Source: an uncultured Candidatus Saccharibacteria bacterium (lineage in GTDB: Bacteria; Patescibacteriota; WWE3; 2-01-FULL-39-13). Taken from it: a stretch of 64,000 nt of DNA. A program made the translations under genes and the position numbers. Within the stretch, counting starts at the first letter, position 1, and each line of letters starts with the position of its first letter. The notes under the pieces are model-generated. The model was not told the origin of the DNA. It ran no database searches and saw only the letters and a program-made list of their open reading frames with translations. Positions 19,297 through 60,648 of this stretch are shown here, piece by piece. The stretch spans positions 7,735 through 71,734 of the forward strand of contig CAYJKF010000003.1 in the NCBI GenBank assembly GCA_964370865.1, read 5' to 3'.

Positions 19297-22200
19297 CTAC
19301 TTAAATTCTACTACTCTATCACGACGAAAGGTTTTGTTAGTCCCCGAAAAACTATCGTATGCTGAGAAATAAGTATCGTTAAACTCAATCAGCGATAATA
19401 ACCGCCAATACTTCGCACTACCAGCCTTAGTAGATTGATAGCGGATATTTATGTTTTTAGAAACACGATCCCCCAAATATTCGCCAAATGCGTCTTGATT
19501 AACTTCACGCGCACCGACACTAAATCCCTTATTTACTGAGGAGTTGGGCTTCTGAACTTTTGTCGTGGAGGTCCCATTAACATCGTGTACGTTATCTACT
19601 TCTTCGTCAGAGAAATTAGTGATATACATTTCTTTTGGGGCATCTTCAGGAGCGATTGTTTCTTTTTCTAATTCCTTAACTACATCCGTCTTGCTGATCA
19701 TGGATTCGTAATCGAAATACTCCTTTATGTAATCAATTAGAGCTTTTTCCTCTCCCGGTTGGTCGCTTATCCAATCGAAATACGATATACGATAGAAATT
19801 CCAGCCAGCCGCTTCTAGGACACCCTGGCGCTCCCAGTCGCTCTGAATATATACTTGACCGTCTCCTCCTTCGAAATGTGTAGGGCCGTCACATTCAATG
19901 GCTAACTTTTTGCCATTATGAGATACCGTTATATCAATCCTAAAACCTAGTGATTCAGTTTGTGTTTCTATTGTGTAATCGTTAGGATCTAATTCTTTAG
20001 CCAAGAAGCTATATATATTCTCTTCAAAACCCGAATCAAACTGTTGTGCAGATTTGATGTGTCGGCGAGAAACAATTCCAAACTTATCAATATATTCCAA
20101 GTACTTTTTAATCCAGATACCATCCGGCCATAGCTCTGTTGCAATCGATGTAACGGTATGGACTTGTAATCTCGCACGACTAAACGCAACATTCACTCGC
20201 CCTGCCGCGATATCTTTACGAATCTCACCTCCTTCTCCTGTTAGAGCTATATAACGCCTCTTATCGCTGGGGTCTTTGATGACGAAAGAGTAGATTACTA
20301 TATCTCTTTCATCTCCTTGAATCCCATCAATAATAGACACCTTTATGTTTTCATCAGAAATAGTTTTACGAATCAACTCCGCCTGTTCATTGAAGAAGGT
20401 TAAAATAGCAATAGTTTTATCTTTTAAAGCCGCATCAATCTTTATCTCCTCTAATATTTGCTGAATTTTCCTTACTTCTGCGATATTGGTTTTATCGGAA
20501 GTTTCTTCTAGTTCGTTTGGAGCTACTAAATGGGTTAATAAAATGCGTCCTGTATTTTTGTAAGGCACAATATTATCGTTTATCGCTTCGAGATTACGAC
20601 CTATCGGTTCATAAAATGACTGATTAGAGAAACCTATCAGCTCTTTGGGAGAACGATAGTGGTACTTAAGTGTTTTGGTTTTAAAACCATTTAAATGGGC
20701 GATGTCCATAACAGATTTAACGGTGTCTTCTTCTGCTTTGATTTGGTAGACATCAGGAATCTTGTGCTTTTTGGCAATCGCTTTCAATTGATCATTAGAC
20801 TTAAACATAATATTATCGTCTCGCATTTGTAATGTATCCCCAAAGAAAATAGTGTGTTTAGCACGGAACATAGAAGGAAATGCGTATGCAAAGTTGCATT
20901 GAGATGCCTCATCAATAATCACATAATCAAATGCGTTCATTTCTAAAGGTACAATTCGACTTACATCATCCAAACTCATCATCCAAATCGGAAGTACTTT
21001 AGTCATTGCCTTGAAATTATCTTCGTTATGTTTAAGCCTATCAAATGTTTTATTGGCTTTTTTACTTTTTGTTAGACTTCTAGCAACTTGTGCAAGAGTC
21101 GCTTTCAAAGATTTGTCGTTATTCGCTTCCCCGATTCTAGTTAAGATACGATTTCGGACATAATTAGTAGTATTAGTTCTGTAAAATTTTCTTATATCCT
21201 TTATTTCGCGATTTAATTCATTTGCCGAATATAATGACACCTCGTTAATCTGTTCAGAAATCTTAGTATACCGAGTTAAATCACTAAAGACCTGCTCCTC
21301 ACCTCCATTTTCTATAATAATCTTTTTAATATTTGTGAATGCCGTTGCGGGTATATTTTTACTCTGTAATAAATCCTGTACCAACGCGCGACTACGAGCG
21401 ATTGCCTTAATTTGACTGGTATAATTAAAATATTCCACAAGACTATCGAGTAGTTGTAAACGTGCTGACTTAGTGTTGTCTGAGAACAGTATTCTCTCAA
21501 GCTCAATATAAATTTCCTGAAGTATAGTTCGGCAGTATTTCTTTAAAGCATTATGTAGTTTTGTGTTATTAACTCTAATACCAAACCAACTGGATCGCTC
21601 AGGCATCTTAGACTTAAAATAGGTTTGAATATCTGTTATTGAATCGATGGTCGACTGGTAATTAATTTCAAGTGACTTAAACTTGGTGTCCAGAGCATTT
21701 ATTAATTTGCCGTGGACGTTCTCTGTATCTTTGATCTTTGACACCATCTTCGCAATGAATTTTTCCTGTTCCAATACTTGGTCATACCATTCACGACTGA
21801 TTCCGTAGGTATACAATGGTTCAAGATAATCCAGTTTTCTACGCTCAACGTATAATGTATATATATATCTTTCATTCTCGATATTTTTATCAAATATATT
21901 GGATCGGTCGGCGAGTAAGGCCAGAGGCTCTTTTAAGTCACCAACTTTACTTTTTTGGAATTCTCGATTTAAAGCTTGAAGGGTAATTGCTGCGCTATCC
22001 TTTTCGTCAGATTCATTATACATTTTTGAAGTCTTGTCTGGTATGTAACCAAATAAGAATGGAATATCTAATCCTTTCAGCTTATCCTTTACTCCACGAA
22101 TGGCTTGATCCTTTTGACTTGCAAAAAGTACGCGTTTACCTGTTGCTGCAAAATGAACTAACAAATTGGCAATTGTCTGTGACTTACCTGTACCTGGAGG

Positions 22201-23181
22201 ACCTTCAACAATTACTGCTTTATTTGAAGTGATTCCTAATACTTTTAATTGATACTTATCGTAGTCAAAGGGGAAGAATATTTCAGTACTTCCGTCTTCC
22301 GAAACATGCTGTTCAATTGTCATATCCTCATCTGAAACCCAACTTCCAAGAGACGTTTTAATTAAATCCGTGTCATCAATAGCTGCGATTGCTTTAAGGT
22401 CCTCCGCCAAGAAATAATTTGTCTTGTTGGTAATGCAAACAATACTAAATTCGAAAGAAGGAATAAGGGTAATTGACTTTGCATCGGCTCTATCAAGCTG
22501 CGTTCTTATTATTGCCCACAGTTCCTCAATGAACTCATCTTCAAGAGGCAAAATTGTTCTTCCTTCTGATTCTGCAGCCGCTATAAACGTAAATATCTCA
22601 TCATAGTATTGCTGCGGTAAGTAGTTCTTCAGTGGACCACATAGTATTTCAATATAATTGTCGGGCAGTTCAAGAATGACATTAACGCCAACCGCGGTGT
22701 ATTTGAGATTAATCGCAGCTACCGGTAACTGTATAAGGGGTGCTTCATATTTTTCGTATTCTTCGCTGTAATCGGCCTCTAAAATTCGTCGGGATTCAAA
22801 GGACACAAAACCGGTTTGAAGAACAACTCTTTTAGTGTACTCATCTGTTTTTATCTTAGTATCAATCTCTTGGATTTGATTTAAGAGTTCTCGGTCACGT
22901 GCAATACGAGCCTCTGCTTTACGCTGTTCCTCACTTTTGTCATCTTCCGGGGTATTGGGGTCAAAGTGACTATCTAATGATATTACTAGAGAAAGAGTGA
23001 TGCTAGCCATATCATTCTCAAAGATCAGTTCGGAAATTGGTAGCAAGTTAACATCTATTTTATCGGTTTTAACTGGCCTACTCCTCGGACCACTGCTTGA
23101 AATCAAACCCACATAGTCGAGTCCATAATTAGCTAATTGGCGAATTGATATTGGTATTTTTGACATACTATATAGAAGCAA
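19297..23181 (-). CDS. Large Upf1/DNA2-like SF1 helicase (AAA_11/AAA_12 type) with an N-terminal about 330-aa unknown (DUF4011-like) region and a C-terminal DUF559/Vsr-like endonuclease domain
   Basis: Walker A VIVEGPPGTGKSQTI, Walker B VIIDEASQ, motif V IDGIQGDERDIVIYSFV, motif VI RVNVAFSRAR. C-terminus ...LAIECDGPTHF...DWERQGVLEAAGWNFYRISYFDW matches the DUF559 core. Confidence 0.8.
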   Translation of the reverse strand: MLLYSMSKIPISIRQLANYGLDYVGLISSSGPRSRPVKTDKIDVNLLPISELIFENDMASITLSLVISLDSHFDPNTPEDDKSEEQRKAEARIARDRELLNQIQEIDTKIKTDEYTKRVVLQTGFVSFESRRILEADYSEEYEKYEAPLIQLPVAAINLKYTAVGVNVILELPDNYIEILCGPLKNYLPQQYYDEIFTFIAAAESEGRTILPLEDEFIEELWAIIRTQLDRADAKSITLIPSFEFSIVCITNKTNYFLAEDLKAIAAIDDTDLIKTSLGSWVSDEDMTIEQHVSEDGSTEIFFPFDYDKYQLKVLGITSNKAVIVEGPPGTGKSQTIANLLVHFAATGKRVLFASQKDQAIRGVKDKLKGLDIPFLFGYIPDKTSKMYNESDEKDSAAITLQALNREFQKSKVGDLKEPLALLADRSNIFDKNIENERYIYTLYVERRKLDYLEPLYTYGISREWYDQVLEQEKFIAKMVSKIKDTENVHGKLINALDTKFKSLEINYQSTIDSITDIQTYFKSKMPERSSWFGIRVNNTKLHNALKKYCRTILQEIYIELERILFSDNTKSARLQLLDSLVEYFNYTSQIKAIARSRALVQDLLQSKNIPATAFTNIKKIIIENGGEEQVFSDLTRYTKISEQINEVSLYSANELNREIKDIRKFYRTNTTNYVRNRILTRIGEANNDKSLKATLAQVARSLTKSKKANKTFDRLKHNEDNFKAMTKVLPIWMMSLDDVSRIVPLEMNAFDYVIIDEASQCNFAYAFPSMFRAKHTIFFGDTLQMRDDNIMFKSNDQLKAIAKKHKIPDVYQIKAEEDTVKSVMDIAHLNGFKTKTLKYHYRSPKELIGFSNQSFYEPIGRNLEAINDNIVPYKNTGRILLTHLVAPNELEETSDKTNIAEVRKIQQILEEIKIDAALKDKTIAILTFFNEQAELIRKTISDENIKVSIIDGIQGDERDIVIYSFVIKDPSDKRRYIALTGEGGEIRKDIAAGRVNVAFSRARLQVHTVTSIATELWPDGIWIKKYLEYIDKFGIVSRRHIKSAQQFDSGFEENIYSFLAKELDPNDYTIETQTESLGFRIDITVSHNGKKLAIECDGPTHFEGGDGQVYIQSDWERQGVLEAAGWNFYRISYFDWISDQPGEEKALIDYIKEYFDYESMISKTDVVKELEKETIAPEDAPKEMYITNFSDEEVDNVHDVNGTSTTKVQKPNSSVNKGFSVGAREVNQDAFGEYLGDRVSKNINIRYQSTKAGSAKYWRLLSLIEFNDTYFSAYDSFSGTNKTFRRDRVVEFK

Positions 23182-53938: not shown

Positions 53939-54015
53939 TGGTCGGGGAGACAGGACTCGAACCTGTGACCTCTTCGTCCCAAACGAAGCGCGCTAGCCAA
54001 CTGCGCTACACCCCG
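53939..54015 (-). tRNA. tRNA-Pro (UGG); U6:U67 mismatch in the acceptor stem
   Basis: Hand-folded cloverleaf: D-stem GCGC/GCGC, anticodon loop UUUGGGA, T-loop TTCGAGT, CCA encoded. Confidence 0.75.
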
Positions 54016-54339
54016 AAAATCTTGTATCTACTTAATTGGCAATCCTATAGTTTTACCGACGTTCTTTAGTACGCCAACCACAATTGACAGGACGAGTTTA
54101 CAAAAATAGAAAAAAACCTTTAGAATTCGAGACAGAACAAATGCTGCATACTGTTCAGCCTGGTTTTTCTTAACATCCATATCATACTGGTTTTGTACGA
54201 AGTTGTCTTGCATTATGAAATTATACGTTAAATGTAGATTTTAAGCATCATATACGTTTATAATATATATGCGTTACAATAACAAAAACGGTCAGTTTGT
54301 ATGTTGTGTCTAGAAATACCCACAACTGGTGCCTTTTAT

Positions 54340-54425
54340 GCCGCGGTGGCGGAATGGTAGACGCGCTGGACTTAAAATCCAGTTCCTTCACCGGAGTGAG
54401 AGTTCGAGTCTCTCCCGCGGCACCA
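54340..54425 (+). tRNA. tRNA-Leu (UAA), long variable arm
   Basis: Acceptor GCCGCGG/CCGCGGC, anticodon loop CUUAAAA, T-loop TTCGAGT, CCA encoded. Confidence 0.85.
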
Positions 54426-54437
54426 AGGCATGGATTT

Positions 54438-54514
54438 GCCTCTGTAGCTCAATTGGATAGAGCGTCGGTCTTCGGAACCGCAGGTTGGGGGTTCAAATCC
54501 TCTCGGAGGCACCA
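54438..54514 (+). tRNA. tRNA-Arg (UCG)
   Basis: Acceptor GCCTCTG/CGGAGGC (one G-U), anticodon loop CUUCGGA, T-loop TTCAAAT, CCA encoded. Confidence 0.75.
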
Positions 54515-54531
54515 TAATATACATACCATCC

Positions 54532-54607
54532 GGGTGCATAGCTCAATTGGCAGAGCAACTGGCTCTTAACTAGTAGGTTGCAGGTTCAAGCCCTGCTGCA
54601 CCCACCA
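54532..54607 (+). tRNA. tRNA-Lys (CUU)
   Basis: Acceptor GGGTGCA/TGCACCC, anticodon loop CUCUUAA, T-loop TTCAAGC, CCA encoded. Confidence 0.85.
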
Positions 54608-54651: not shown

Positions 54652-55848
54652 ATGGTCGATTTAACTGCCGAGCAAAAAAAAATAACTGAAAAACTACTTG
54701 ATTGGATAGAAGTGCTTTCGGAAGAATCGGATGATGACTGGATTGAGCTCGATAAACAATTTATTACTGTCGGCGGTTATGCTGGTACAGGTAAAACTAC
54801 TCTTATTAGTCACTTTCGAAAAATTCTAAAAGAAAAGCATCCAAAAGTTAAAGTCGCTTTCTGTGCCTATACAGGAAAAGCAACAAGAGTCCTAAAAAAT
54901 AAACTAGAAGAAGCAGGGTCTATCTATTCAACAGATTCAATCTCAACAATCCACGGTCTTATTTATACTCCAATAGAAGATGATAGAGACCGAATTGTGG
55001 GTTGGGAAAGAAAACCAGAAATAAAAGAAGATTTAATAATAATTGATGAGGCTTCAATGGTAGACGAGAATATTTGGAACGACATCACTCAGTACCACAT
55101 TCCAATTATTGCTATTGGCGATCATGGCCAACTTCCACCTATAAATGGAAATTTTAATTTAATGGAAACTCCTCAATATAAATTAAATGAAATTCATAGA
55201 CAGGCTAAGGATAATCCAATCATAAAGTTATCAATCCACGCTAGAAATTTTGGACAGGTATTACCCAATGTATACTCTGACACGGTTCTAAAAGTTAAAA
55301 GAAGTGATGAAAACTCTGGTTATAAAATCGAAGAGGTTATGGAAAAATATGACCGAGATACTTTAGTTATATGTGGTTACAACCAAACTCGAATTAAACT
55401 CAATAAATATATCAGGCAAAAGCTGGGCTTTGAATCAGTCGAACCTATCCGCGGTGATAGAGTTATTTGTCTTAGAAACAATCATGAGGAAGGTATTTAT
55501 AATGGAATGTTTGGTGAAATCGTAAACATCGAGGATAAAGATGAACGAAGATATAAAGTTGAAATTAGGATAGACGACACAGGAGAAATTTATCTTGGAA
55601 ATATTCTAAAAGTCCAGTTTAATAATCCACAGTCCATGAATTTTACCGATCAGCGCGTTTTGACGTTGGATTCAGATTTGTTCGATTTCGGTTATGCTGT
55701 GACAGTTCATAAAAGTCAGGGAGGTCAAGCAAAACGCGTAATCTTCTTTGAAGAAAAAATGGGCAAAATGCAACCAGATACAAAGCGAAAATGGTTATAT
55801 ACCGCTATCACAAGAGCTCAAGAAGAACTCTATATTATTGAAAGTTAG
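54652..55848 (+). CDS. RecD/Dda-like SF1 DNA helicase (AAA_30 + UvrD_C_2 type)
   Basis: Walker A GYAGTGKTT, Walker B IIIDEASM, C-terminal YAVTVHKSQGGQ and TAITRAQE motifs. Confidence 0.75.
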   Translation: MVDLTAEQKKITEKLLDWIEVLSEESDDDWIELDKQFITVGGYAGTGKTTLISHFRKILKEKHPKVKVAFCAYTGKATRVLKNKLEEAGSIYSTDSISTIHGLIYTPIEDDRDRIVGWERKPEIKEDLIIIDEASMVDENIWNDITQYHIPIIAIGDHGQLPPINGNFNLMETPQYKLNEIHRQAKDNPIIKLSIHARNFGQVLPNVYSDTVLKVKRSDENSGYKIEEVMEKYDRDTLVICGYNQTRIKLNKYIRQKLGFESVEPIRGDRVICLRNNHEEGIYNGMFGEIVNIEDKDERRYKVEIRIDDTGEIYLGNILKVQFNNPQSMNFTDQRVLTLDSDLFDFGYAVTVHKSQGGQAKRVIFFEEKMGKMQPDTKRKWLYTAITRAQEELYIIES

Positions 55849-57357: not shown

Positions 57358-57432
57358 GCGGGTATCGTATAGTGGCTATTATACTTCCTTGCCAAGGAAG
57401 AGATACGGGTCCGATTCCCGTTACCCGCTCCA
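57358..57432 (+). tRNA. tRNA-Gly (GCC)
   Basis: Acceptor GCGGGTA/TACCCGC, anticodon loop UUGCCAA, CCA encoded. Weak D-stem. Confidence 0.8.
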
Positions 57433-57436
57433 TACC

Positions 57437-57458
57437 GGACATATGTCCAGTTTTTTTA
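57437..57458 (+). terminator. Rho-independent terminator (GGACATATGTCC hairpin + T7)
   Basis: Perfect 12-nt palindrome followed by TTTTTTT, directly after tRNA-Gly. Confidence 0.55.
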
Positions 57459-57700
57459 TTTCTCCCCAATAAATCAATCCTTTCTTGAGTCCGAGCGAGA
57501 ATTTCTGGTAAAATTCGCCAGCCTGGAAATGTAAATACTGGCAAAGAGAATAGAACCTATGGATGATAATCACATGTATATAACAAAAGAAGAACTTGAG
57601 GAATTTAAGCAACTTGCTTTTAAGGAATATGGGATTAAACTCACAGATGAGCAGGCTTACTAACAAGGAAGTGCTTTGTTGAGGTTGATGGATTGCGTGC

Positions 57701-58330
57701 TTGATAAGACTCTTTAACAGAAAAAAAAAGACGCTGTTCGTAGGACTATTGATAAAAAATAACATGAATATTACTTGGGAAGAACTTCTATTGGAAACAT
57801 TACCTTTTCGTGAAGAGATCTTAGAGTGGTGTAAAACTCACCCCGAGTTTAAAAAAGGGCTAAAAGTTTTAGCCTCTGAAAGATTTCTCCATTTAGGAAC
57901 GGTGATGATTTCTTACCCTCCTGGAACAAATGACCAAGTCATTGGCGTGTATGCTTATGATTACAAGCACAATCCTCCGCTGTTTAAACAAGACTTTATC
58001 GTAGATGTAAATCAAGCTCACAAAGAATTTGTTCTTTACACAGGATTTCCAAAAGGCACTCAAAGCACTAAATATGTAAAACATATGAATGATTTTTTCT
58101 CTAAATACGGAAGAAACGGGAATTATGCTGGTTCACATCACTTAACATTTGATCAGTTGCCTGAAGATCCTGAGATAAGACGAAGAGCTGAAAGAATGAT
58201 CGAACGCGCAAAGGATTTGCCTGAGGATATTACCAATCCTCCACAACAAATGATGGTGGATTATTTATCAAAAATCAAAGAAGCCAAAAAAGATAAAAGG
58301 GCAGAGATTCGAAAGCTTAAAGAAAAATAA
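57701..58330 (+). CDS. Hypothetical protein (probable start MNITWEE near 57764)
   Basis: ORF only. Confidence 0.4.
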   Translation: MIRLFNRKKKTLFVGLLIKNNMNITWEELLLETLPFREEILEWCKTHPEFKKGLKVLASERFLHLGTVMISYPPGTNDQVIGVYAYDYKHNPPLFKQDFIVDVNQAHKEFVLYTGFPKGTQSTKYVKHMNDFFSKYGRNGNYAGSHHLTFDQLPEDPEIRRRAERMIERAKDLPEDITNPPQQMMVDYLSKIKEAKKDKRAEIRKLKEK

Positions 58331-58391
58331 AGATAATCTACACCAAGCTGGTTTTCAAACTTACTAAGTTGTAAAATACAACCAATAAATT

Positions 58392-59255
58392 ATGGCAAAA
58401 CGAACTGTTATTGAAGCAACTTCCCCTCCAAAATTAGTAATGCCGCAAGAAAAGGTAAGGGAATTACTTAACAAGCAATTGGAAAAAGGTAGAGAACTTC
58501 AAAATGTTCAAATAAATAGTGAGCAGAGCTATGATTCTGCTGAAGCTTCTAAAGAGAAATGGAAAGACTTTACAGAAGAGATATTACAACGATCATTTGA
58601 CAATGATTCGATGAGAAAAGAATTCGCTTCTAGCTATGGAGCGATGAGAATGGCTTCAGATCTGTATGACATGATTTCGAATTACAAGAATGATATTGAT
58701 GCGAAAGTAAATAAATTAGATTCGATAATAGAGAGACTAGATCTAATTCCAGAATTGCTACCGACACTAGGTCCTAGTAATGAAAATCCACAACAAAGCA
58801 ATGACGTAAGTTCAAAAGAAGTGTTTATTGTTCATGGACATAATCATGAAATGAAAGTTCAAGTTGCACGTTTTATCGAAAGTGTCGGTTTAACTCCAAT
58901 CATACTTCATGAGCAACCCAATGGAGGCAAAACATTAATCGAGAAGCTTGAGCATCATTCAGCCGTTGGTTTTTGCGTTGTTCTTGTAACAGCAGATGAC
59001 ATGGGCTACGAGGTTGGGCATGAAAAGGATGCAAGACCAAGAGCTAGACAAAACGTGATCGCTGAACTGGGATTTTTTGTAGGGAAGCTTACTAGAAAAA
59101 ATGTTTCTGTACTTTATGCAGCTGGTGTTGAACTCCCTTCAGATTTTTTTGGCGTTGTTTATATCCCGATAGATAAGGACGAAGGGTGGAAATTGAAACT
59201 AGCTAAAGAAATTAAGAATGCTGGTATGCCAATAGATTTGAATCGTGCTCTGTAA
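58392..59255 (+). CDS. Two-domain protein: an N-terminal about 130-aa coiled/unknown domain and a C-terminal TIR-like Rossmann domain (COG4271 / 'predicted nucleotide-binding protein containing TIR-like domain' type)
   Basis: C-terminal KEVFIVHGHNHEMKVQVARFIESVGLTPIILHEQPNGGKTLIEKLE...GFCVVLVTADDMG matches the recalled TIR-like (PF10137-type) consensus VFIVHGHD...PIIL.EQ.N.G.TIIEK.E...FAVVLLTPDD. Confidence 0.5.
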   Translation: MAKRTVIEATSPPKLVMPQEKVRELLNKQLEKGRELQNVQINSEQSYDSAEASKEKWKDFTEEILQRSFDNDSMRKEFASSYGAMRMASDLYDMISNYKNDIDAKVNKLDSIIERLDLIPELLPTLGPSNENPQQSNDVSSKEVFIVHGHNHEMKVQVARFIESVGLTPIILHEQPNGGKTLIEKLEHHSAVGFCVVLVTADDMGYEVGHEKDARPRARQNVIAELGFFVGKLTRKNVSVLYAAGVELPSDFFGVVYIPIDKDEGWKLKLAKEIKNAGMPIDLNRAL

Positions 59256-59423
59256 GATTCTTACTTTAACTCTAAAAAGCTTTTTATAGCGATGTGGTTC
59301 TTTAGTGCAGTGAGTTGTAGAATCAAATTAGGAGCACTCGACTTCCGTAGGTTCGAGCGAAGTTCGGTTACCAGCTCCAAAATTATTTGTGATATTAGTA
59401 CGAATGTTATATTCTAGTTCAGT

Positions 59424-60485
59424 ATGCTATTTGACTACCCAACTGTACTATCATTTGACGATGTCTTATTAGTACCACAACGAAGCAGAGTTAACTCCAG
59501 GTCAGAGGTAGATTTAACAACACACATTACTCCAGATTTTAAATTAGATATTCCGCTTATAACATCCAACATGTCGACCATTACAGGCATAGACATGGTT
59601 TTAGAAATGAATCGACTTGGAGGAATGTCAGTTCTACATCGATTCGAATCATTAGATGAACAAATTAAAAAAATAATTTTTCTAAAAAAGAATAATGCAA
59701 AATTTGCTGTTTCTTTAGGAATAAAGAGTGACGTTTTAGAAACCGCAAGAAAACTAGTGAATGCTGGTGCATACGTGATTAATATTGACGCTGCACATGG
59801 CCACTTAGAAAAAACTCTAAAAACAATAAAGATTCTCAGAGATGAATTTGGAAGCGATGTAATTATATGGGGAGGAATAGCAGCGACATATGAAGCTGCA
59901 AGAGATCTATATGCAGCAGGCTCAGATGTTGTAACAGTTGGAGTAGGTGGAGGATCAATCTGTACCACCAGAATTCAAACTGGATGCGGACTTCCGACTT
60001 TTACGTCGATAGTTGAGGCGGCAAGGGCCGCAAAAGAATACAATCGTACAGTTATTCCACTCGCTGGCATAGAAAATTCAGGCATGATTGTCAAAGCCCT
60101 TGCCGCCGGCGCATGCGCCATAATGGGAGGAAATCTCTTTGCCGGTACAGACGAATGCCCAACTCCAATCGTAGAAATTAATGGCAAAAAATTTAAACAA
60201 TATAATGGATCAACTTCACTTACGGAAAAATCAAACCATCAGCAAAGCGGTTTAAATAATGAGAAACACTACACTACGCATATCGAAGGAGTTGAAGGAT
60301 ATGTAAGTTATAAAGGACCAGTCTCCAACGTCGTTGAAAATATGTTAGCAGGAGTGAAATCCGGATTATCCTACAGTGGGGCTACTTCTATAAAAGAGTT
60401 ACAAGAAAAAGCCAAATTCGCTAAGGTCACTCCAGCGGTTCAGAAAGAAAATAACTTCCACGATATTGTTAGAAATATTACTTAA
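59424..60485 (+). CDS. IMPDH/GMP-reductase family enzyme without a CBS subdomain (GuaC-like, 353 aa)
   Basis: TIM-barrel IMPDH signatures: active-site loop GVGGGSICTTR, N-terminal DDVLLVP. Confidence 0.8.
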   Translation: MLFDYPTVLSFDDVLLVPQRSRVNSRSEVDLTTHITPDFKLDIPLITSNMSTITGIDMVLEMNRLGGMSVLHRFESLDEQIKKIIFLKKNNAKFAVSLGIKSDVLETARKLVNAGAYVINIDAAHGHLEKTLKTIKILRDEFGSDVIIWGGIAATYEAARDLYAAGSDVVTVGVGGGSICTTRIQTGCGLPTFTSIVEAARAAKEYNRTVIPLAGIENSGMIVKALAAGACAIMGGNLFAGTDECPTPIVEINGKKFKQYNGSTSLTEKSNHQQSGLNNEKHYTTHIEGVEGYVSYKGPVSNVVENMLAGVKSGLSYSGATSIKELQEKAKFAKVTPAVQKENNFHDIVRNIT

Positions 60486-60573: not shown

Positions 60574-60648
60574 GCGGGTATCGTATAATGGCTATTATGT
60601 CACCCTTCCAAGGTGAAGACGCGAGTTCGACTCTCGCTACCCGCTCCA
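60574..60648 (+). tRNA. tRNA-Gly (UCC)
   Basis: Acceptor GCGGGTA/TACCCGC, anticodon loop CUUCCAA, T-loop TTCGACT, CCA encoded. Confidence 0.8.

What the first reader, a model, noticed from the sequence alone, without database searches (positions are those of the whole stretch)
58392..59255. Stand-alone protein with a C-terminal TIR-like domain
The C-terminal 150 aa match the VFIVHGHD...PIIL.EQ...TIIEK...VVLVTADD pattern of bacterial TIR-like (COG4271/PF10137-type) domains. These act as NAD+-degrading or signal-generating effectors in CBASS, Pycsar and Thoeris. Here the domain is fused to an unknown coiled N-terminal domain, with no CD-NTase or cyclase partner within 5 kb, and it lies between two tRNA genes. 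It could be a minimal single-gene abortive-infection module.
Basis: partly seen in the sequence, partly recalled or inferred. Interest (0 to 1): 0.5.

Follow-up and report, generated by a model that had tools for sequence, protein, structure and literature searches.

The report
Stand-alone sensor-TIR NADase defence gene
This is a real single gene in which a small helical domain is joined by a flexible linker to a TIR enzyme domain of the NAD-destroying kind; it belongs to a large family already listed as a candidate anti-phage defence, so it is a sound but fairly ordinary find.

Summary
The ORF at 58392-59255 (+, 287 aa) is real. Its C-terminal half is a confident PF10137 (Cap12/PycTIR-type) TIR domain (E 6.5e-35).

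- **Active site:** the SfSTING residues are all present and invariant or nearly so across 120 relatives: R219, N221, catalytic E225, and D251, which is supplied in trans.
- **N-terminal half:** this is not a coiled coil. It is predicted to be a four-helix bundle (pLDDT >90), followed by a 14-24 aa disordered linker.
- **Family:** the whole protein matches PADLOC candidate single-gene defence family PDC-S35 (E 1e-75) and phrog_16442. More than 7,300 relatives were found in bacteria, archaea, prophages and plasmids.
- **Partners:** no neighbouring gene is conserved in 47 genomes, and no CD-NTase or cyclase lies nearby.
- **Closest analogue:** the architecture copies Bacillus SpbK (four-helix bundle, linker, TIR), which is activated when a phage portal clusters it. 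Homology to SpbK was not detectable.
- **Local context:** the gene sits in a 2-kb block downstream of tRNA-Gly(GCC). The block is bounded by a 13-nt repeat of the tRNA 3' end and is 96% identical to a block at tRNA-Gly in another Saccharimonadales contig with unrelated flanks.

This is a new member of a catalogued but experimentally uncharacterised kind. Interest is modest.

The parts
58392..59255 (+). Complete gene for the 287-aa sensor-linker-TIR protein (PADLOC PDC-S35 / phrog_16442 family)
   Evidence: ORF. PDC-S35 E 1.3e-75 over aa 34-285. phrog_16442 E 2.4e-64 over aa 14-280. Identical protein found on 23 metagenome contigs.
58431..58754 (+). N-terminal four-helix-bundle domain (aa 14-121), the presumed sensor or clustering domain
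58755..58817 (+). Disordered S/A/P/T-rich linker (aa 122-142)
   Evidence: pLDDT <50 at aa 126-137. Linker length 14-24 aa, median 19, across 120 relatives.
58818..59252 (+). C-terminal TIR domain (aa 143-287), Cap12/PycTIR clade
59046..59066 (+). R219-Q220-N221-V-I-A-E225 active-site motif; the catalytic Glu codon is at 59064-59066
   Evidence: Aligned to SfSTING R78/N80/E84 (alignment; residue roles from PMC9402430). R219, Q220, N221 and E225 are invariant in 120/120 sequences.
59142..59144 (+). D251 codon, equivalent to SfSTING D110, which completes the neighbouring subunit's active site
   Evidence: Alignment ELPSDFFG / DLPTDLDG. Role of D110 from PMC9402430. D in 118/120 sequences.
57358..57432 (+). 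tRNA-Gly(GCC), left boundary of the shared 2-kb block
   Evidence: ARAGORN and Rfam. Only 84% identical to the L091 tRNA, while the cargo is 95-98% identical.
57420..57432 (+). attL-like copy of the 13-nt direct repeat GTTACCCGCTCCA (tRNA 3' end)
   Evidence: The pattern GTTACCMGCTCCA occurs exactly twice in 64 kb; expected 0.00 from shuffles.
57574..57762 (+). Remnant of a 62-aa ORF, interrupted by two in-frame stops in the window but intact in L091
   Evidence: tblastn 93.5% over 62 aa, and the translation shows two stops.
57764..58330 (+). ORF188, a Saccharimonadales-specific protein of unknown function; co-resident in the block but not an obligate partner of the TIR gene
   Evidence: 96% identical in L091. 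32 homologues, none with a Pfam domain. Homologues follow a tRNA-Gly gene but have no TIR neighbour.
59256..59379 (+). 3' tail of the block, ending in the attR-like repeat GTTACCAGCTCCA (59367-59379), preceded by a GGTTCGA T-loop-like motif
   Evidence: Similarity to L091 stops at 59379. Repeat. No RNA family and no significant fold.

Best explanation
The gene encodes a self-contained abortive-infection protein. [quoted passage not shown]

Proposed mechanism:
- In uninfected cells the TIR domains are inactive, because a complete active site needs an Asp (D251) donated by a neighbouring TIR.
- During infection the N-terminal domain binds a multimeric phage-derived ligand, or is otherwise induced to cluster.
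- The flexible linker then lets the TIR domains pack head-to-tail into an oligomer or filament. E225, R219 and N221 cleave NAD+, and the infected cell stops supporting phage replication.
- No second-messenger synthase or separate effector is needed.

Shown here: the domain architecture, the family membership, conservation of the catalytic residues, the absence of a conserved partner, and carriage on mobile DNA.

Inferred only: NADase activity, the oligomerisation switch, the nature of the trigger, and the anti-phage phenotype.
For: - **Active site.** R219, N221, E225 and D251 align to SfSTING R78, N80, E84 and D110. PMC9402430 describes these as the NAD+ pocket, the catalytic Glu and the trans-acting Asp. 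They are conserved in 118-120 of 120 relatives.
- **Catalogue match.** Full-length match to PADLOC single-gene candidate PDC-S35 and to phrog_16442.
- **Stand-alone.** In 47 full-length loci from different species, the commonest neighbour family occurs in only 3. ORF188 homologues occur without a TIR gene.
- **Modular sensor design.** 165 proteins share this TIR domain, always at the C-terminus, behind 24 N-terminal types that cannot be related to each other. The N-domain evolves faster than the TIR domain, 39% against 61% identity. Tandem paralogues occur in L022 and L034.
- **Mobile and defence context.** 116 IMG/VR viral contigs and 1,153 plasmids carry relatives. Closer relatives sit next to a Type IIG R-M system and a Type II R-M system, or inside a recombinase/terminase-bearing element. 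The window copy lies in a tRNA-bounded block shared at 96% identity with a contig whose flanks are unrelated.
- **Precedent.** SpbK has the same layout: bundle at 1-94, an 18-aa linker, then TIR. It is activated by clustering on a phage portal and forms STING-TIR-like filaments (PMC12847820).
Against: - No experiment on this family was found.
- In the 47-genome sample most neighbours are ordinary housekeeping genes, and PADLOC hits among 150 neighbours are sparse. No background rate was computed.
- In the window itself the flanking genes are housekeeping.
- The N-domain has no identifiable ligand-binding relatives.
- Homology to SpbK was not detected, so the activation model rests on analogy.
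Confidence: 0.6

Rival explanations
1. Signal-generating TIR (Thoeris ThsB-like). On sensing phage, the protein converts NAD+ into a cyclic-ADPR-type messenger that activates an effector encoded elsewhere in the genome.
For: TIR domains with the same catalytic Glu make signalling molecules in Thoeris (abstract of 10.64898/2025.12.03.692087). SpbK itself produces N1-cADPR as well as ADPR.
Against: No effector gene is conserved next to it in 47 genomes. The Pfam hit is PF10137, not the ThsB families, and PADLOC returns no ThsB model. The characterised members of this TIR clade, Cap12 and PycTIR, are NAD+-depleting effectors. The Thoeris survey explicitly set stand-alone TIRs aside as probable depleters.
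Confidence: 0.1
2. Orphan CBASS/Pycsar-type effector, switched on by a cyclic nucleotide made by a synthase encoded elsewhere.
For: The closest sequence and structure relatives are Cap12 (TIR-STING) and PycTIR.
Against: The N-domain is a four-helix bundle, not a STING, SAVED or cNMP-binding fold. The NCBIfam Cap12 models score 33 bits against a 450-bit cut-off. No CD-NTase or cyclase lies within 10 kb, none appears among the listed PADLOC hits for the whole window (only the top 25 of 96 families were displayed), and none recurs in 47 genomes.
Confidence: 0.05
3. A housekeeping or regulatory hydrolase of the TIR/deoxyribosyltransferase/MilB fold, unrelated to phage defence. Examples would be nucleotide salvage or removal of NAD caps from RNA.
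Against: No deoxyribosyltransferase or LOG Pfam family was hit even at E 0.1. The distribution is patchy and has no synteny. Relatives are carried on prophages and plasmids and sit next to R-M systems. The trans-acting Asp typical of oligomerisation-gated NADases is conserved. N-terminal domains are swapped and fast-evolving.
Confidence: 0.1
4. An addiction or competition module that serves the mobile element carrying it, for example by excluding rival elements or stabilising the island, rather than defending the host.
For: It sits in a tRNA-bounded block shared between contigs with unrelated flanks. Relatives are frequent on conjugative plasmids and prophages.
Against: No cognate antitoxin-like partner is conserved. 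Many copies lie in plain chromosomal contexts. The mechanism would be the same as in the best explanation, so this differs in beneficiary rather than in how the protein works.
Confidence: 0.1

Closest known systems
PADLOC PDC-S35 (phage-defence candidate, single gene) / PHROG phrog_16442
   Same: Full-length profile matches: PDC-S35 E 1.3e-75 and phrog_16442 E 2.4e-64. Both cover the helical N-domain and the TIR domain. The single-gene organisation is the same.
   Different: Nothing structural differs, so this protein is a member. The family is only a bioinformatic candidate. I found no paper that tests or even names it. This copy is in a Saccharimonadales (CPR) genome.
SpbK (YddK) of Bacillus subtilis ICEBs1
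   Same: [quoted passage not shown] SpbK TIR filaments resemble those of STING-TIR (PMC12847820).
Cap12 / TIR-STING (CBASS effector, e.g. SfSTING 7UN8, 9LMQ)
   Same: Closest TIR domain by sequence and structure. The NAD+ pocket is shared: Arg, Asn, the catalytic Glu, and the Asp inserted from the neighbouring subunit.
   Different: There is no STING domain. The domain order is reversed, with TIR at the C-terminus here. There is no CD-NTase operon. The NCBIfam equivalog score is far below cut-off.
PycTIR (Pycsar effector, 8JSJ)
   Same: Same Pfam TIR clade. Weak but significant profile match, 5.5e-5.
   Different: No cyclic-nucleotide-binding domain and no adjacent pyrimidine cyclase.

Membership tests
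Pfam PF10137 (CAP12/Pycsar-effector TIR clade) | HMM score above the gathering threshold over most of the model | tested here: met
   120.1 bits against a 24.7 cut-off, profile positions 2-118 of 119.
Pfam PF10137 (CAP12/Pycsar-effector TIR clade) | TIR (flavodoxin-like) fold most similar to solved members of the clade | tested here: met
Pfam PF10137 (CAP12/Pycsar-effector TIR clade) | Catalytic Glu on helix alpha-C, plus the Arg/Asn pocket and the trans-acting Asp | tested here: met
   E225, R219, N221 and D251 align to SfSTING E84, R78, N80 and D110. Conserved in 118-120 of 120 sequences.
Pfam PF10137 (CAP12/Pycsar-effector TIR clade) | NAD+ glycohydrolase activity | not testable with these tools
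   Needs an enzyme assay.
PADLOC PDC-S35 | Full-length match to the family HMMs | tested here: met
   Five PDC-S35 models hit. The best is E 1.3e-75, aa 34-285 against profile 15-261 of 264.
PADLOC PDC-S35 | Single-gene system with no conserved partner | tested here: met
   338 neighbours in 47 loci; the largest shared neighbour family occurs in 3 loci. ORF188 is not linked to the TIR gene elsewhere.
PADLOC PDC-S35 | Anti-phage activity | not testable with these tools
   No publication found. Needs phage challenge experiments.
CBASS Cap12 (TIR-STING) | NCBIfam equivalog score, a STING domain, and an adjacent CD-NTase | tested here: not met
   32.7 and 29.7 bits against a 450 cut-off, TIR part only. 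The N-domain is a helical bundle. No CD-NTase within 10 kb.
Pycsar PycTIR | Cyclic-nucleotide-binding domain and an adjacent pyrimidine cyclase | tested here: not met
   Only the TIR part matches the PycTIR model, aa 180-267. No cyclase family is recorded on the neighbours.
Thoeris ThsB | ThsB-type TIR next to a ThsA-like effector | tested here: not met
   No ThsB Pfam or PADLOC hit. No conserved neighbour.
SpbK-type sensor-TIR | Architecture of four-helix bundle, flexible linker and C-terminal TIR in a single gene | tested here: met
   compared with the description of SpbK in PMC12847820.
SpbK-type sensor-TIR | Detectable homology to SpbK | tested here: inconclusive
   No SpbK hit from the family profile against PDB sequences at E<=10, in the PADLOC output, or in the top structural matches. 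I could not obtain the SpbK N-domain sequence or model for a direct comparison.
SpbK-type sensor-TIR | Activation by binding a phage portal or other multimeric phage protein | not testable with these tools
   Needs escaper genetics or binding assays.
Nucleoside 2-deoxyribosyltransferase / LOG / MilB hydrolases | Sequence-family membership | tested here: not met

The most novel reading that the evidence does not exclude
The gene may be the cargo of a roughly 2-kb, integrase-less mini-island. The island would insert at the 3' end of tRNA-Gly genes and move between Saccharimonadales (CPR) genomes, spreading a SpbK-like protein that senses a phage protein directly and depletes NAD+. That would be a first look at mobile abortive-infection immunity in ultra-small episymbiotic bacteria. 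It would also give a handle on the unknown trigger for a family of more than 7,000 members.
Probability: 0.25. Interest if true: 0.5.

Novelty: new member of a known kind. Interest (0 to 1): 0.3.

Why it matters
If the inference holds, PDC-S35 is a very widespread one-protein immune receptor. More than 7,300 sequence clusters were found, relatives occur in bacteria and archaea, and the TIR domain is on more than 1,100 plasmids, including ones from Klebsiella and E. coli. The receptor would combine the Cap12-type, oligomerisation-gated NADase with a small, fast-evolving, swappable sensor domain, which is the SpbK design principle arrived at with different parts. The family has no published experimental test and its trigger is unknown, so it is a cheap and well-defined target for validation. 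For this particular genome, it shows that a reduced Saccharimonadales chromosome carries an abortive-infection candidate on recently exchanged DNA. It is not a new kind of system.

Tried and rejected
- **Literature:** searches for 'PDC-S35' and 'COG4271' found nothing on this family. 'PF10137' and broader TIR/helix-bundle searches gave only surveys and the SpbK and SfSTING papers.
- **ORF188 as a partner or antitoxin:** rejected, because its homologues lack TIR neighbours. It has no PHROG or Pfam identity.
- **Common origin of the 24 N-terminal types:** hhalign probabilities were below 35%, so they could not be related.
- **The 3' tail as a tRNA-like or structured RNA:** no Rfam match, and the fold z-score was -0.47.
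- **Promoter and terminator scan:** not above the shuffled expectation.
- **Base composition:** no island signal, GC is flat at about 0.36.
- **Empty-site test for the islet:** the metagenome scan with the IMPDH-like neighbour returned only relatives at 41% identity or less, so it was uninformative.
- **Defence enrichment around 47 distant relatives:** PADLOC hits were sparse and I had no background rate, so I do not use this as positive evidence.

Full report

Yes. An ATG-initiated ORF of 287 codons occupies exactly 58392-59255 on the + strand. Pfam assigns aa 144-261 to PF10137, 'CAP12/Pycsar effector protein, TIR domain'. The E-value is 6.5e-35, the score is 120 bits against a cut-off of 24.7, and almost the whole model is covered. 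No other Pfam family appears even at E 0.1.

Two tRNA-Gly genes flank the region: GCC at 57358-57432 and TCC at 60574-60648. The precomputed Pfam annotation of about 10 kb on either side shows glycosyltransferases, a RecD/PIF1-like helicase, an IMPDH/GMP-reductase-like gene, superoxide dismutase and the like. It shows no CD-NTase or nucleotide cyclase.

**2. What is the protein?**

An AlphaFold2 model built on 120 homologues is confident (mean pLDDT 91) and has three parts:
- a helical N-terminal domain at aa ~14-121;
- a disordered stretch, with pLDDT below 50 at aa 126-137;
- an alpha/beta domain at aa 143-287.

Modelled on its own, the N-domain gives pLDDT 92 and pTM 0.83, and forms an up-down four-helix bundle. 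So 'coiled' in the finding should read 'four-helix bundle'.

Foldseek against the PDB ranks the TIR domains of bacterial TIR-STING (Cap12; 9LMQ, 9LMR, 7UN8) first, at E 4e-6 to 2e-4. TIR-APAZ/SPARTA, SARM1 and MyD88 follow. Deoxyribosyltransferase-like proteins appear only at E 0.025-0.04.

**3. Is the catalytic machinery intact?**

The HMMER alignment to SfSTING can be read against the residue roles given by Morehouse et al. (PMC9402430). The PDB chain numbering is offset by +8 consistently at all four positions:

| This protein | SfSTING | Role |
|---|---|---|
| R219 | R78 | NAD+ pocket |
| N221 | N80 | NAD+ pocket |
| E225 | E84 | catalytic glutamate |

In the 120-sequence alignment, R219, Q220, N221 and E225 are invariant and D251 is present in 118 of 120. 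F145 in the first strand probably corresponds to SfSTING F6, but that part lies outside the printed alignment, so this is inference. Conservation of the trans-acting Asp is the main reason to expect activity gated by oligomerisation.

**4. Family and catalogue status.**

The whole protein, not just the TIR part, matches five PADLOC models named PDC-S35. The best is E 1.3e-75, with aa 34-285 on profile positions 15-261 of 264. From my own knowledge, 'PDC-S' stands for single-gene 'phage defence candidate' in PADLOC-DB v2. The protein also matches phrog_16442, of unknown function, at E 2.4e-64. The NCBIfam Cap12 equivalogs match only the TIR core, at 30-33 bits against a 450-bit cut-off. So this is not a Cap12.

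The protein search returned 7,314 hits at E<=1e-3 among the 8,000 candidates scored. The best 120 are all about 275-320 aa, cover 90-100% of the query, and carry PF10137 as their only Pfam domain. Sources name them 'predicted nucleotide-binding protein' or 'TIR domain-containing protein'.

Relatives occur widely:
- at least 565 of the species-representative genomes, spanning Bacteroidota, Chloroflexota, Planctomycetota, Proteobacteria, Acidobacteriota, Saccharibacteria and archaea (Halobacteria, Thermoplasmatota);
- 116 IMG/VR viral contigs;
- a few deposited phages, including E. coli phages, where it is annotated 'TIR-like domain-containing protein';
- 1,153 plasmids, mostly matching through the TIR domain only, and half of them conjugative.

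I found no paper that names or tests PDC-S35. A recent Thoeris survey explicitly discarded stand-alone TIRs as probable NAD+ depleters.

**5. Stand-alone or part of an operon?**

I called ORFs in 47 loci from different species that encode full-length relatives and clustered the 338 genes lying within four positions of the TIR gene. The most widespread neighbour family occurs in 3 loci, and gene sizes and orientations vary freely. Pfam and PADLOC scans of 150 neighbours show a heterogeneous mix. It includes MutS, methyltransferases and 2-oxoacid dehydrogenase, as well as some integrases, HTH proteins, Type III methyltransferases, other PDC candidates and four extra PF10137 paralogues. I had no background rate, so I do not claim enrichment.

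The seven closer relatives (50-98% identity) give a clearer picture:
- one is followed by DUF4352, NERD and a Type IIG restriction-modification enzyme (L093);
- one abuts a Type II REase plus methylase (L096), confirmed with PADLOC;
- one lies in an element with a serine recombinase, a small terminase, an HNH protein and a PIN-like gene;
- one is next to an HD-CE/HATPase_c_3 protein;
- one is next to a PIF1-like helicase;
- two are in housekeeping surroundings.

**6. The N-terminal domain.**

It diverges faster than the TIR domain, with mean pairwise identity 39% against 61%. It is joined by a linker of 14-24 residues (median 19) rich in Ser, Ala, Pro and Thr.

Among 165 proteins from the fetched loci that share this TIR domain, the TIR is always C-terminal with no extension beyond it. 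The N-terminal parts, mostly 100-175 aa, fall into 24 BLAST clusters. The query type is the largest, with 100 of 161. The others show no profile-profile relationship to it (hhalign probability below 35%). Tandem paralogues with different N-termini occur in L034 and L022.

This pattern is a constant enzymatic module behind a variable, rapidly evolving small domain. It is what one expects of a sensor-effector immune protein.

**7. Mechanistic model and its precedent.**

[quoted passage not shown] Its N-domain docks on the clip domains of the dodecameric SPbeta portal protein YonE. [quoted passage not shown]

The protein studied here has the same three-part layout, and it has a TIR domain that is itself of the STING-TIR type, with the trans-Asp. 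I therefore propose the same logic: ligand-induced clustering through the bundle, then TIR oligomerisation, then NAD+ depletion.

This is analogy, not homology. No SpbK model or chain appeared in any sequence or structure search. The SpbK TIR is reported to be closest to the SPARTA TIR. The identity of the trigger is unknown.

**8. Local genomic context (beyond the finding).**

The window is a chromosomal stretch with DnaK, AspRS, PBP1A, PcrA, PolX and CopA. The closest genome hit for the TIR gene is a Candidatus Saccharibacteria MAG. The upstream ORF188 has homologues only in a small family, one of which NCBI labels Candidatus Saccharimonadales. The organism is therefore most likely a Saccharimonadales (CPR) bacterium. 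The identical locus is seen on 23 metagenome contigs.

A contig from another sample (L091) carries a 98%-identical TIR protein, and it shares one continuous block with the window, 57358-59379 (2,022 bp, 96.3% identity). The block contains tRNA-Gly(GCC), a 62-codon ORF (intact in L091, two in-frame stops here), ORF188, the TIR gene and a 124-nt tail. The DNA on both sides is unrelated: a membrane protein and the IMPDH-like gene here, against EF-P and an HD-CE ATPase in L091.

Within the block, the tRNA is the least conserved segment, at 84% against 95-98% for the cargo. The block ends with GTTACCAGCTCCA, a 12-of-13 copy of the tRNA 3' end GTTACCCGCTCCA. That pattern occurs only at these two places in 64 kb, with 0.00 expected.

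This is the signature of an element integrated into the 3' end of a tRNA gene and recently exchanged between different genomes, although no integrase lies inside it. ORF188 homologues elsewhere also sit directly after tRNA-Gly genes (anticodons TCC, CCC, CCC) but without a TIR gene, and once beside a serine recombinase. ORF188 is therefore not a functional partner of the TIR protein. An empty-site test could not be completed.

**9. Verdict.**

The gene is a new member of an already catalogued, very large, but experimentally untested candidate defence family. Its most likely mechanism is that of a stand-alone, clustering-activated TIR NADase (confidence about 0.6). The alternatives cannot be excluded without experiments: a signalling TIR, an orphan cyclic-nucleotide effector, a metabolic hydrolase, or a module serving the mobile element.

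Interest is modest (0.3). A specialist would not be surprised by it. The family is a well-defined, inexpensive target for validation, and the small tRNA-Gly-associated block in a CPR genome is a minor curiosity worth a follow-up.

Noticed in passing
window 57358-59379 (compare L091:3461-5480): A 2,022-bp block (tRNA-Gly(GCC), a decayed 62-codon ORF, ORF188, the TIR gene and a tail) is 96% identical to a contig whose flanks are otherwise unrelated. The tRNA is less conserved (84%) than the cargo (95-98%). The block ends in a 12-of-13 repeat of the tRNA 3' end. It looks like an integrase-less mini-island at tRNA-Gly.
   Followed up: partly
window 57764-58330; L176:217-792, L177:4001-4576, L178:4001-4582: ORF188 is a Saccharimonadales-restricted protein with no known domain. 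In every contig examined it sits immediately downstream of a tRNA-Gly gene (anticodons GCC, TCC, CCC), with variable genes after it. In L176 it is near a serine recombinase. Its function is unknown.
   Followed up: partly
window 19297-23181 (-): A 1,294-aa helicase-like protein matches another PADLOC candidate family, PDC-S37 (E 1e-71, partial), and also the Hhe and MkoA/MkoC models. It may be a second defence candidate in the window, or a housekeeping helicase.
   Followed up: no
window 54652-55848 (+); L092:1082-2518: A 398-aa RecD/PIF1-like SF1 helicase lies 2.5 kb upstream of the TIR gene and hits PADLOC PDC-M16A (E 9e-46). A 58%-identical TIR relative (P0003) has a PIF1-like helicase immediately downstream. 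This may be coincidence.
   Followed up: no
window 53939-54607: A cluster of four tRNA genes (Pro on the - strand; Leu, Arg and Lys on the + strand) lies just upstream of the helicase. In all, eight tRNA genes are scattered through the 64-kb window.
   Followed up: no
L022:354-2295 and L034:10001-11992: Tandem arrays of PF10137 genes. There are three in a row in a Poribacteria contig: two are TIR-only (153 and 175 aa) and one is full-length. In Chryseobacterium luquanense there are two, with different N-terminal domains. This suggests local diversification of the sensor part.
   Followed up: partly
L091:5631-8297: In the contig with the 98%-identical TIR gene, the downstream neighbour is an 888-aa protein with HD-CE and HATPase_c_3 (MORC-like ATPase) domains. 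It has no PADLOC match and could be an uncatalogued defence gene.
   Followed up: no
window 59424-60485 (+): The 353-aa IMPDH-family protein lacks room for the CBS pair, so it is more likely a GMP reductase (GuaC-type) than IMP dehydrogenase. Its adjacency to the NAD-cleaving TIR gene is specific to this lineage and is not conserved.
   Followed up: no
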